Program-made: the position numbers and the translations under genes
Origin: Tubulanus polymorphus
Taxonomy: Eukaryota; Animalia; Nemertea
DNA: 64,000 nucleotides
Direction of reading: 5' to 3'
Assembly (NCBI RefSeq): GCF_964204645.1
Contig: NC_134025.1
Location: 1,426,001-1,490,000, forward strand
Shown here: one piece after another, positions 60,001 to 63,883 of the stretch
How positions within the stretch are numbered: the stretch's first letter is position 1
How the letters are laid out: every line of letters starts with the position of its first letter
Notes under the pieces: model-generated
Databases searched by the model: none
What the model saw: only the letters and a program-made list of their open reading frames with translations
What the model was told of the DNA's origin: nothing

Positions 60001-63000
60001 TAAAAATAAGAGATTAAAACCTGAAGTTGAAAAACGTACGTATCACCAGTAGTTAGCGTTCTATTCAAAGTTTATTCGATGAAATCAAATCTGATTTTAA
60101 TTGGTTTCAGGACAAATGGAGATGTTTTTAGAAGGTCAGGAAGTAGAGAATGAAGATGAGAATACAGGTACAGATGATTCAGATCCAGCTGTAGTAGTCG
60201 ATGGTGAAGATGGACCGTTGAATGGTATGAAGTTCTGTTTCTAGTTTCAAACACCGAAGTTTAAGTTTTTAGGGTGTATTTTTAGGTAGTTCTCATGGCG
60301 ATGCACATAATCTTGATTACAACTTGATGAAACCGGTATCATTCAAACAGTCAAACTTGTTGTCATTTTAGAGTTTGTCCCGTTACTGAAGTTGTTTCTA
60401 TTATGAGTCTCAATTTGTATTTTCAATTCAATTTACAAAGTGTAAATCGTCATTTGGATAAGTCATCAATAAAATGATTATCACAAAAATGACTTCAACC
60501 AGTTTGACTGTACTACAGTAGGCCGCGCTTGTCAAGGAGCTAATTGACTCAGATTATCACTAATCCTACTGTCACAATATTTGGAATTTTGCTTCCCCAA
60601 TTTACGTGATGATGATGATTCATCCTTGCTCCGACTGTGTGAGAATTCACTTGCCAGAGCCGGACAAGCGCTAAGTCTACCGTTCAAACTATAGTTCTCC
60701 ATTTTGACTCATTTGGTTCGTGTTTAAACTAAAACTCACGTTTGTAATTACTATTAACTATTTACCTCAGCTGGTTTACTAAAAACTTAAAACTGAGATC
60801 TTTAAACTGACTGAACGCACACACACACTAAAATCTTTGTTAATCTGCTGAGAATTTAGCTTCATTTTCTATTCGTTTCATTATGTGGTTATTGTTTTAT
60901 GATTTCTTGCTAACGGTCGTTTTGGTTTTTTTCATAACATGCACCTATCATTCGCTAACTGCACCCGGTAATTTTTCCACAGTATTCCGACATCACGAAT
61001 CTTGCGCTGGTGAACAACAGTCGTTTTCTATTTGGTCCGCAGATGTCGATCCGACGATTCCGCTTCAGGACGAGGATAATAATCCGCACCCGGAGAAAGA
61101 CGACAGCAGCGACTCGACTGATCCGACCACGCAGGAAATCGCTAAGAAAATGAGTATGAAACTGGCAGCAGCTAAAGAAATAAAAAACGGCATTGATAAA
61201 GATGATCTCCTCGAGGCTATGGTAAACAATATTTATGATCTTTTGCGTTTGGTTAAATGGACTAATTTTTGCTTAAACCCTATCAGTGAACTCAAGTATC
61301 AACCATTTGAGGTATAGCTGCACCCATTTCCACAGTTCTGAGTTAGTTTCAACTCAGAGTTAGAATTAGTTCATTTCACTTATCTCTCGTGGAATTGGGT
61401 CCTTATTCATGACCTTCAACTACTGGTCATTTGCTGATGAAAAAAGTTAGGCTTATTGATTGAATAGCTCTTCAAACACAAGACAGTAGAGTTACTCTTG
61501 TAGAGTAGAGTAGATTCAAACCTTCAGTAGCTCTACTTCATTACAGTTCAACTGTTCCACATTCTACGAGGGTTCAACTGAAATGACATCATTCAGATAT
61601 ATGAACTCAGAATGATTTGATACTAACTCTGGTCTCTGAGATGAATGAATAGAACTAAGTCTCACATGTTGTGTAGATAATGATTATATTTTCAGATTAA
61701 CACATCTTCGATGTTATCAGCAGATGAAGAAGCAGCTCTTATGTCTACATATCGATATACGGGAGCCACGACAAATATCCATCCTTATTTATCATCTCTA
61801 GTCAACTATGCTCAACCCGTGAAATTCCAAGGTTTTGATGTTGCTGAAGGTCAGTCTCCTAGGGCTTTAGTTGTCGAATTACTCCGGAGTTAGACCTTAA
61901 AAACCCTAACTGTATGGAACAAGTCATAATTCTAGACCAGAACTCTAATCAGACCTGACTACGGCTTCTAGTTGAGAGTAGTTTCTACTGCCCAAGAGGT
62001 TAACACTCCCATAAAATCATAAAATCATGTTTCCAGTTTATTTTCGATTAAACTACTATTTTGGATATCAAAATAACTGTCAATTTTTGTGAAAACTACT
62101 ATAGTAAAGATATCAGGTAGTCTGGGCTGCGTGTTATTAATGAGTGAACTGGAAACATCAAACAACTTATTGCCTTTATGTAACTTTCAATGCAGAACTC
62201 AGTTGTTTCACTGATACTAATCTATAGATCGGGTATATTTCATTTGCAGAACGTAATATTCATTATAACATGTCGTCATTCTCTGAATCAACCGGTTTGG
62301 GTTATATGAAAACTCAAGCGATCGAATTTGTCAAGTATCCAACCATAACATTGATATAATCAGTAATAGCAGCATGTTGTATTCTGCACGCATCGATGTT
62401 GTATTTTAACTCATTTGGTTTTGAATTGAATCAATTTGATTTGATTCTAAGTCGGTCTGGTGTTTGCATGTATTTTCATTGAATATTCACTCCTCAAGTT
62501 TTACGCGGAAATTTCTCGGAAATCCGTTTTAAGTTTCGTCTATTTGTTTTCAGCACGATATTTTTGCTTTTTAAAACAGTCGAGATAAAGTGAAATTTCT
62601 CGTGAAACCTTTCTCCGTCAGATCCGGCGGATATCGAGAGCGATACTTATCTCGATTGTTAATTTTGTGCACGTTTTTCATCTATGTTTTGCATGATTAT
62701 TCGGTGAATGTTTTTTATTATTTGCGCATGTTTTTCCAGCGGTGAATTGTCATTTTCACATGTCATCGTTCAATGAATCGACTGCACTCGGTTTATTGAA
62801 AAACTCTTCCGTAGATTTCGCGGCGTATCCTTCTCTGTTTATATTCACTTCACTCTCGCAATTATTCGCAAACGCTTTAATAGGGAACGTTCATTGAGTA
62901 TACAAAAAATAAAGTCGAATCGAATTCAGACAGTCATAGCTTGTGTTTTTGGAGGATAACTTCCTTTGTTATGTGTACACATACAATTACGATTATCCGG

Positions 63001-63883
63001 GGAAAAAACCAAAAAATTAAATCATTTGATGTTACTCATAAAACATACACATCATATAGCAGTGCACGACGAGTCAGATCAGATTGATTTCAGAGATAAC
63101 GGTTTAACTCTGCTGTTTGTTGAAATGTCATTCTGACCTTGAATATCATTTTGAAACTAAAACCAGAAAAATTTCCATGATCCAAAAAGATCAGACTCGA
63201 GTGGAATCTACTGTAAACGACAGTAAGACCATCGTATATTGAAGTTATTGATAGCTTCATCACTAGAAATATTACTATAAGTCAATCATAAAGAACACTA
63301 AACTTTATGCAAATAGCTACCTAGCTACAATACATAGATCTACCTACTGGTAGCTACAATACGTAGATCAATCACGCTTTTCACTTTTTGGTCAAAGCTA
63401 CAACTTGTAGTTCTCAACGTACTTAATGAACGCTTCCCTTTTTATTCATCGCTTTATTTTCATAAACTTCGTCAAATGTTATTTTGTTTATTGTATGTGG
63501 AATGAACTGCATGTTATCGTATTCAATATCGCACGAGAACAAAAGCATGTCTAGAACACAAGCATGTATACAGTATTCAATCATTATATCATACAAACCT
63601 TAACCGTAATAAAAACAGTTATAACAAACGTCAGATGAGCAGAATTTATCCTAAAGGCGGTCGTGTTGACTCCAGTAACTATATGCCTCAGGTGAGTTCA
63701 TCTGAAATCAATCCCTCGACAAAGTGTCTGTTTTGTAGATCAATGAAGGTGTTTATATCGGTTCGTTAATCTATTATAGATTTTCTGGAACGCTGGTTGT
63801 CAGATGGTCGCGTTGAACTTCCAAACTCCAGATATCGCCATGCAGCTAAATCAGGGCAAATTTGAATATAATGGTAATTGTGG
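42042..63883 (+). CDS. PLCB4: Phospholipase C beta-4 / norpA orthologue, 5' part (PH, EF-hand, X, X-Y linker, start of Y); continues beyond the window
   Basis: Exons: 42042-42125, 42268-42348, 45512-45571, 50197-50337, 50423-50502, 50982-51035, 51908-51989, 53495-53595, 53836-53890, 57748-57856, 58109-58319, 58670-58763, 58837-58916, 59110-59194, 59945-60035, 60111-60224, 61043 (or 60983)-61221, 61696-61849, [62250-62334 or 62740-62824], 63619-63691, 63780-63883. Motifs include [67 protein letters not shown] and [40 protein letters not shown]. Confidence 0.96.
42770..42970. repeat. Degenerate ~20-bp tandem repeat (CTCCTGTCTATATCTGACAG)
   Basis: Several diverged copies in a PLCB4 intron. Confidence 0.7.
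43255..43549. repeat. GC-rich minisatellite (GCGTGGGCCCGTGAGAGCTTGGGCTCGCTGGA-type units)
   Basis: Tandem ~32-bp units with sub-repeats. Intronic. Confidence 0.9.
44704..44814. repeat. (CCCT)n microsatellite
   Basis: Directly visible. Purine-rich GA tracts also occur at 44294-44452 and 50522-50640. Confidence 0.95.
46300..46985. repeat. 14-bp repeat (AGTCTGTCATCCAG-type) arranged in ~100-bp higher-order units
   Basis: CCATTACGTG recurs at 46771, 46871 and 46971. CCATATCAT recurs at about 100-bp spacing further upstream. Confidence 0.9.
48098..49095. repeat. 23-bp minisatellite (GTACACTGGTCAGTACTGGGTAT)
   Basis: About 43 units. Intronic, and the source of the [15 protein letters not shown]s. 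Confidence 0.97.
52789..53059. repeat. 12-bp minisatellite (CCAATACAG[T/C]CT)
   Basis: About 22 units. Intronic. Confidence 0.97.
53350..53440. repeat. 27-bp tandem repeat (CTCTCCTGATTGTGATCAGGTCTCCAA), about 3 copies
   Basis: Directly visible just upstream of exon 53495. Confidence 0.8.
53958..56188. repeat. 24-bp minisatellite (CTACCTGTACTCTAGTGCTACCAT), about 2.2 kb
   Basis: About 93 units with a 4-nt ATCT insertion near 55113. It lies in the PLCB4 intron 53891-57747 and is the source of the 811-aa, 392-aa and 363-aa ORFs. Confidence 0.98.
56524..57678. repeat. GA-rich low-complexity polypurine array
   Basis: About 1.15 kb of GAGAGAGG(T/C)GG and GAGAC(A/T)GA units. Confidence 0.95.
58345..58650. 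repeat. Degenerate TGGTCAG-based tandem repeat filling a PLCB4 intron
   Basis: Repeating TGGTCAGTTTGAACT / GGTCAGCTGAG units. Confidence 0.8.
62250..62334 (+). CDS. PLCB4: PLCB4 mutually exclusive exon A ([29 protein letters not shown])
   Basis: U2-type acceptor CATTTGCAG, 85 nt, donor GTATCCAA. Close to the vertebrate PLCB4 sequence as I recall it ([28 protein letters not shown]). Confidence 0.92.
62740..62824 (+). CDS. PLCB4: PLCB4 mutually exclusive exon B ([29 protein letters not shown])
   Basis: U2-type acceptor TTTTTCCAG, the same 85-nt length and phases as exon A, a homologous MSSF.ES..LG..K....F motif, and a consensus U12 donor GTATCCTT. Confidence 0.85.
62825..63618 (+). other. U12-type (minor spliceosome) GT-AG intron
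   Basis: 5' site GTATCCTT (62825-62832). Branch site CCTTAAC at 63598-63604 lies 12 nt before the terminal AG. No polypyrimidine tract (CGTAATAAAAACAG). Confidence 0.9.

What the first reader, a model, noticed from the sequence alone, without database searches (positions are those of the whole stretch)
61850..63618. PLCB4/norpA mutually exclusive exon pair apparently locked by major/minor spliceosome incompatibility
Seen in sequence: the upstream exon ends in a U2 donor (GAAG|GTCAGT, 61849). Two paralogous 85-nt exons follow (62250-62334, 62740-62824), both phase 1 to phase 2. Each has a U2-like pyrimidine-rich acceptor but a U12-type donor (GTATCCAA, GTATCCTT). One U12 branch point (CCTTAAC, 63598) and an acceptor without a pyrimidine tract serve both. 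Established knowledge: U12 donors do not normally splice to U2 acceptors, and this logic is described for the vertebrate JNK (MAPK8/9) alternative exon pair. Inference: the A-to-B intron is a U12/U2 hybrid and skipping both would need a U2/U12 hybrid, so exactly one exon is used. Double inclusion or double skipping would also frameshift (85 mod 3 = 1). The swap changes the start of the catalytic Y domain. I do not know of this arrangement being described for a PLC-beta gene, but I cannot search the literature.
Basis: partly seen in the sequence, partly recalled or inferred. Interest (0 to 1): 0.9.

Follow-up and report, generated by a model that had tools for sequence, protein, structure and literature searches.

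The report
Ancient either-or exon in PLC-beta4
A ribbon-worm gene for the signalling enzyme phospholipase C-beta4 carries two copies of one catalytic-domain exon whose splice signals are split between the cell's major and minor splicing machines, which likely forces each mRNA to keep exactly one copy; both versions recur in gene models of molluscs, an annelid and flatworms, and the trick itself is already known from vertebrate JNK genes.

Summary
The gene is the PLCB4-like gene of the nemertean Tubulanus. Two paralogous 85-nt exons have U2-type acceptors and U12-type donors, and share one U12 branch point before an acceptor with no pyrimidine tract. A spliced contig uses exon B with the U12 intron; exon A was not seen spliced in this species, and its donor is a rare variant. 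Both forms occur in gene models of 13 of 16 spiralian clusters and 0 of 4 other clusters. A lophotrochozoan contig, L002, has three copies, all with U12 donors, and one branch point. The U12 intron is shared with human PLCB1-4. Best reading: a duplicated exon in front of an old U12 intron, kept exclusive by JNK-type spliceosome incompatibility, with decay of frameshifted products as a backup. The lock itself is untested. The mechanism is published for JNK; my searches found no paper on PLC-beta. The scan noted the same pair before on octopus DNA (e1-8672275). New member of a known kind; interest 0.45.

The parts
42042..63883 (+). PLCB4-like gene, coding exons 1-21 of the B isoform; the gene runs on past the window end
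   Evidence: Exact spliced match to P0121 over 727 residues; last exon end corrected to 63883
61696..61849 (+). Upstream constitutive exon (end of X-Y linker, start of Y box)
   Evidence: spliced in X4 contig
61850..61857 (+). U2-type donor shared by A and B
   Evidence: U2 matrix score 7.5, within the range of the gene's other donors
62225..62249 (+). U2-type acceptor of exon A
   Evidence: Score 10.7; no U12 branch heptamer
62250..62334 (+). Exon A, 85 nt, the ancestral-type copy
   Evidence: Open frame; 24 of 27 residues identical to the Lineus A form; no spliced contig seen in this species
62335..62342 (+). U12-type donor of exon A, rare GTATCCAA form
62335..62739 (+). Hybrid intron: U12 5' site, U2 3' end, 405 nt
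62740..62824 (+). Exon B, 85 nt, the faster-evolving copy
   Evidence: Spliced on both sides in X4 contig; in 3 of 3 RefSeq models of this gene
62825..62832 (+). U12-type donor of exon B, GTATCCTT
   Evidence: used in joint 62824>63619
63598..63618 (+). Single U12 branch point (CCTTAAC) and acceptor without pyrimidine tract
63619..63691 (+). Downstream constitutive exon C (Y box)

Best explanation
Two paralogous 85-nt exons, each with a U2-type acceptor and a U12-type donor, lie between one U2 donor and one U12 branch point, and this wiring likely lets only one of them into each PLC-beta4 mRNA. Inferred history: the exon in front of an old U12 intron, which human PLCB1-4 also have, was duplicated with both of its splice sites in an early spiralian. 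Inferred mechanism: the major spliceosome joins the upstream donor to acceptor A or B; the minor spliceosome joins that exon's donor to the one U12 acceptor; A-to-B would need a U12 donor on a U2 acceptor and skipping both a U2 donor on a U12 acceptor without a pyrimidine tract, so both would be disfavoured, and leaks would be frameshifted and likely decay. The layout enforces 'one only' but does not choose; the choice would rest on acceptor competition and regulators, and here B likely wins by default because A has the weaker U12 donor. The swap keeps the invariant core of the segment and changes the residues around it, so it likely tunes regulation or kinetics and does not switch catalysis off.
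For: Splice-site scores and counts. Spliced X4 contig with joints 61849>62740 and 62824>63619. Human and mouse PLCB1-4 are listed as minor-intron genes, and the human PLCB4 donor has the same last exon letters as exon A (PMC6717393 supplement 1). Both forms in 13 of 16 spiralian clusters, 0 of 4 others. L002: three 85-nt copies, 3 of 3 with GTATCCTT, one exact branch heptamer before exon C, U2 donor upstream, each copy open alone and every combination tested closed. Gene models that read through the donor as Tyr-Pro, which needs GTAYCC, after the A type in P0028, P0066, P0391, P0445 and after the B type in P0004. Five columns invariant in 13 of 13 B and four of them in 26 of 26 A/outgroup segments. 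JNK precedent. Schistosomes, which have both forms, have all minor snRNAs (PMC2770079).
Against: The A donor is a rare U12 form (13 of 959), and several of those table entries look U2-like. All 3 RefSeq models of this gene use B. One of 3 L002 acceptors (first copy) scores as low as a U12 acceptor on the small U2 matrix (-3.6), though it has a long pyrimidine tract further up and no branch heptamer. Protein models cannot show A+B or skipped products, since those are frameshifted. Hybrid introns in a broad sense are annotated and spliced in many genes (PMC11347168), so incompatibility is not absolute. The B donor is seen outside this species in only two cases (L002, P0004). A single origin of B has weak support (46/0).
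Confidence: 0.74

Rival explanations
1. Exclusivity is mainly a frame filter: A+B and skipped transcripts are made and then destroyed by nonsense-mediated decay; the U12 donors are only inherited with the duplication.
For: 85 is not a multiple of 3; both wrong products stop early. 60% of human MXE clusters have such lengths and only 5 of 629 have U2/U12 incompatibility (PMC5740500). Both copies would inherit the U12 donor whatever its role.
Against: Acceptor C lacks a pyrimidine tract in both the window and L002, and acceptors A and B lack a U12 branch point, so the wrong joints have no matching machinery. The U12 donors are kept on all 3 copies in L002.
Confidence: 0.13
2. In this species exon A is fading or silent and B is in effect constitutive, so there is no working switch here even if relatives have one.
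For: Rare A donor; 3 of 3 RefSeq models use B; the one spliced contig joins across A.
Against: Exon A is open, keeps a strong acceptor and is 24 of 27 residues identical to the Lineus A form and 17-24 of 27 to all 13 other A forms. No difference in exon A in the X1 contig that covers it (weak, as under one difference is expected).
Confidence: 0.09
3. Competing RNA pairings (a docking site and one selector per exon, as in Dscam-type clusters) enforce the choice.
For: A site at 63189-63209 can pair with 62442-62462 or with 63062-63081 (-21.1 and -18.9 kcal/mol); 1 of 48 shuffles was as low in the first run.
Against: In the second run 7 of 106 shuffles and 10 of 22 same-shaped stretches from other introns of the gene were as low. 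The upstream-dock model gave 7 of 48. No close relative was on hand to test conservation.
Confidence: 0.04

Closest known systems
Vertebrate JNK (MAPK8/9/10) exons 6a/6b with the U2-U12 hybrid intron (Chang et al. 2007, PMC1874599; review PMC3584512)
   Same: Duplicated exon, U2 intron upstream, U12 5' site plus U2 3' end between the copies, U12 intron downstream; the swap lies in a catalytic domain of a signalling enzyme.
   Different: Unrelated gene, so a separate origin; invertebrate; exon length is not a multiple of 3, so a frame backup exists; one relative has three copies; no minigene or tissue data exist here.
Five human MXE clusters with U2/U12 incompatibility (Hatje et al. 2017, PMC5740500)
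   Same: Same class of mechanism, counted genome-wide at 0.79% of clusters.
   Different: [quoted passage not shown] Vertebrate PLCB4 proteins sampled show one form.
The U12 intron of human and mouse PLCB1-4 (Olthof et al. 2019, PMC6717393)
   Same: Same donor type, and for PLCB4 the same last exon letters as exon A; same position is inferred from that.
   Different: Single exon in front of it; no alternative copy listed.
Drosophila norpA subtypes I and II (Kim et al. 1995; only the reference line was seen)
   Same: Recalled: equal-sized mutually exclusive exons in the orthologous gene, with retina and body bias.
   Different: Recalled: that swap lies near residues 130-155, far from the Y box, and is not tied to a U12 intron. 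Not checked here.

Membership tests
PLC-beta4/norpA genes | Sequence and domain order (PH, EF, X, Y, C2, C-terminal) | tested here: met
   100% identity of the upstream exon to P0002, named PLCB4-like, with those Pfam domains; 21 exons match P0121 exactly
JNK-type U2/U12 mutually exclusive exons | Tandem paralogous exons of the same phase that each keep the frame | tested here: met
JNK-type U2/U12 mutually exclusive exons | U2 donor upstream and U2 acceptors on each copy | tested here: met
   Scores 7.5, 10.7, 8.3 on matrices from the gene's own introns; intronIC was not available
JNK-type U2/U12 mutually exclusive exons | U12 donor on each copy | tested here: met
   GTATCC on both, below all 20 U2 donors in score; B canonical, A a rare form
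JNK-type U2/U12 mutually exclusive exons | One shared U12 branch point and acceptor downstream, none in the intron between the copies | tested here: met
   the only 1-mismatch hit in the A-B intron overlaps the A donor region, about 400 nt from acceptor B
JNK-type U2/U12 mutually exclusive exons | Each copy is found alone in mRNA | tested here: inconclusive
   B shown by a spliced contig; A shown only through gene models of other species
JNK-type U2/U12 mutually exclusive exons | Joined and skipped products are absent even when decay is blocked | not testable with these tools
   Only contigs were served, no raw reads
JNK-type U2/U12 mutually exclusive exons | Downstream intron depends on the minor spliceosome | not testable with these tools
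   Needs knockdown; no genome was held to look for U11/U12 genes
Docking-site/selector RNA-structure clusters | One site pairs alternately with a selector beside each exon, above background | tested here: not met
   10 of 22 control intron stretches and 7 of 106 shuffles as low; conservation not tested
Steric-interference mutually exclusive exons | Under about 50 nt between the first donor and the second branch point | tested here: not met
   The A-B intron is 405 nt; threshold from PMC5740500; a far-upstream branch point was not mapped

The most novel reading that the evidence does not exclude
A switch as old as the common ancestor of nemerteans, molluscs, annelids and flatworms, built only from spliceosome incompatibility, gives every such animal (schistosomes and tapeworms included) two cell-type-specific PLC-beta4 catalytic barrels with different control by the X-Y linker or G proteins, for example one for photoreceptors or neurons. 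The same wiring scales to three copies without RNA pairing, so an exon in front of a U12 intron is a ready-made cassette for exon arrays, and this would be a standing reason to keep the intron U12.
Probability: 0.3. Interest if true: 0.7.

Novelty: new member of a known kind. Interest (0 to 1): 0.45.

Why it matters
Published cases of this lock are few: JNK and five human clusters. A case in the Gq effector PLC-beta4 that spans several invertebrate phyla gives a natural experiment. Lineages that lost or converted the U12 intron should have lost the pair or gained another lock, and a three-copy array tests whether incompatibility alone can police more than two exons. It also flags an unstudied pair of enzyme isoforms in molluscs and parasitic flatworms, and shows that the RefSeq models of this gene may miss the ancestral-type exon.

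Tried and rejected
No RNA holder was listed for the stretch. No contig of X4 lies on exon A, and X2 and X3 hold only unspliced pieces there; contigs drop rare variants, so this is no evidence on A. The X5 contig (about 85% alike) begins at the first bases of exon C, as a branch of two upstream exons or of exon and intron would give; contigs cannot show a start, so it was not used. No whole genome was held, so U11/U12 genes and other U12 introns of this species were not checked. A profile search with B-type peptides from several species was not run; the B search used one protein region instead, which is less sensitive and returned mostly nematode and fish proteins. Two AlphaFold models of an octopus B isoform were useless for the segment: mean pLDDT 36.5 without alignment, and pLDDT under 50 over 584-694 with 58 rows; no fold search was run on them. 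Papers on which PLC-beta3 residues of this segment touch substrate, linker or membrane were not found or not held, so the functional role of the changed residues stays inferred. RNA docking sites fell to background. Inverted repeats were many and short (34 pairs). The tree of 27 columns could not settle one or several origins of B (the 32-residue scallop B row was left out). One search used two misplaced donor coordinates, corrected. Three papers were not held.
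Full report
What is in the sequence. The window ends inside a phospholipase C-beta4 gene. The exon before the pair is 100% identical to P0002, a RefSeq PLCB4-like protein of the nemertean Tubulanus (the species name was cut in the output), and 21 exons from 42042 on match isoform P0121 letter for letter. 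After the exon ending at 61849 come two 85-nt exons, A (62250-62334) and B (62740-62824), 48% identical in protein. Either one gives an open frame into exon C at 63619; both together, neither, or either retained intron stop early.

Splice-site types. I built U2 matrices from the gene's own introns, as intronIC was not on hand. The upstream donor scores 7.5; the A and B donors score 0.6 and -0.1, below all 20 other donors (1.8-10.7), and 0 of 20 have CC at +5/+6. GT plus ATCC occurs at 2 of 1496 GT sites in the gene region, the two donors. Acceptors A and B score 10.7 and 8.3 and have no U12 branch heptamer; acceptor C scores -3.6, has the lowest pyrimidine share of the 21 window acceptors, and an exact CCTTAAC starting 21 nt before the exon; 1 of 18 constitutive acceptors scored lower than C. 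The B donor is the common U12 form. The A donor, GTATCCAA, is rare: 13 of 959 GTATCC entries in supplement 1 of PMC6717393, against 722 for GTATCCTT.

Expression. Five runs were listed, none on record as RNA. One 4589-nt contig of X4 is spliced and joins 61849>62740, 62824>63619 and the flanking introns, so exon B and the U12-type intron are used and A is skipped in that form. All 3 RefSeq models use B. I have no direct evidence that A is spliced in this species, and no junction counts.

Conservation. I listed members of 20 protein clusters (at most 15 per cluster) and cut out the segment. Both forms occur in 13 of 16 spiralian clusters: Lineus, Owenia, oysters, Mytilus, scallops, Octopus, Biomphalaria, Haliotis, Patella, Gigantopelta, Aplysia, Schistosoma, Mesocestoides. 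The other three show one form (Tubulanus, Lingula with one member, Macrostomum). 0 of 4 non-spiralian clusters (starfish, sea urchins, amphioxus, spiders) show two, and the representatives of vertebrates, arthropods and nematodes seen are of one type. These are gene models, and insects were barely sampled. A forms average 19.9 of 27 identical residues among themselves and 18.4 to outgroups; B forms 13.3 and 12.7 (I assigned the labels by likeness to the outgroup form). So A is the ancestral type and B the faster copy. Tubulanus A is 24 of 27 identical to Lineus A. Five columns are invariant in all 13 B forms. The best tree puts the 13 B rows on one side of a branch, with support 46/0 and in 48% of bootstrap trees: one origin is allowed, not shown.

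Wiring in other genomes. A metagenome scan gave 12 loci. L002, a lophotrochozoan by protein likeness (group not resolved), has three 85-nt copies, each ending in GTATCCTT, one exact branch heptamer starting 14 nt before exon C, and a U2 donor upstream; its first acceptor scores low on my matrix. L001 shows one copy with the same donor, about 900 nt from the contig end. The other 10 of 12 have no intron after the segment and one copy (nine look like bdelloid rotifers, one like a nematode). Gene models that run into the intron as Tyr-Pro point to the same donor after A in Bulinus, Paralvinella, Patella and the tapeworm Hymenolepis, and after B in Elysia. Human and mouse PLCB1-4 are minor-intron genes, and schistosomes have the minor snRNAs (PMC2770079; PMC10639083).

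How it most likely works. Shown: exon structure, site types by sequence, use of B, recurrence of both forms and of the wiring. Inferred: duplication of one exon with its U2 acceptor and U12 donor makes a hybrid intron that neither machine removes well, and leaves one U12 acceptor that the upstream U2 donor cannot use well. In JNK2 the same layout sets exclusivity while the pyrimidine tract and Nova proteins set the choice (PMC1874599). Frameshift decay is a parallel safeguard that I cannot separate from the lock. A docking-site model fell to background, and the 405-nt intron is too long for simple steric blocking. The segment aligns to about residues 611-637 of human PLC-beta3 (8EMX numbering), just after the X-Y linker part that blocks the active site (575-584; bioRxiv 2023.08.29.555394). 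That its conserved serine contacts the inositol head group is recalled from PLC-delta1 and not checked. The structure predictions failed in this region.

Known or new. The mechanism is in print for JNK and counted in five human clusters. For PLC-beta, searches listed no paper describing it; I saw only the listed rows (30 of 182, 25 of 311, 25 of 315, 25 of 29 in the larger ones), and most subscription papers are not held. Papers seen as passages: PMC1874599, PMC3584512, PMC5740500 (plus a supplement search with no hit; its appendix figure naming the five genes was not seen and may bear on novelty), PMC11347168, PMC8034651, PMC2770079, PMC10639083, PMC3557258, PMC5896119, PMC6191721, the bioRxiv preprint. 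Seen as supplement rows only: PMC6717393. No hits: PMC13102995. Reference line only: Kim 1995 in PMC7345481; its content is recalled. The scan itself noted this pair on octopus DNA (e1-8672275) and the same wiring in p38, RPB5 and an annelid gene; these are unchecked notes, but they suggest a recurrent kind.

Verdict. Real, conserved and probably functional; a new member of a known, rare kind. Confidence in the spliceosome lock 0.74; interest 0.45.

Noticed in passing
L002:8843-12112: Three tandem copies of the exon, all with U12 donors, before one branch point: a three-way array in the same gene of another lophotrochozoan.
   Followed up: yes
L002:1417-1501 and 1706-1790: A second duplicated 85-nt exon, in the X box, with ordinary U2 donors. 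The window has one copy (59110-59194), and no second form was seen in the stored models of other species.
   Followed up: partly
L003, L004, L006-L012: Rotifer-like PLC-beta4 genes lack both introns around the segment and have one copy; bdelloids are reported as extremely poor in minor introns.
   Followed up: partly
window 61948-62130 and about 63170-63245: Short dispersed repeat inside the introns: many unrelated contigs of X1 and X4 lie here with loose ends.
   Followed up: no
window 60983-61042: RefSeq isoform P0122 lacks 20 residues at the start of this X-Y linker exon, which points to a second acceptor 60 nt downstream.
   Followed up: no
P0283, P0284 (Trichuris models): The read-through after the segment is not Tyr-Pro, which may mean that the U12 donor has turned U2-like in this nematode.
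   Followed up: no
P0186, P0189 (scallop models): The scallop B form is 5 residues longer than A, with the frame kept.
   Followed up: no
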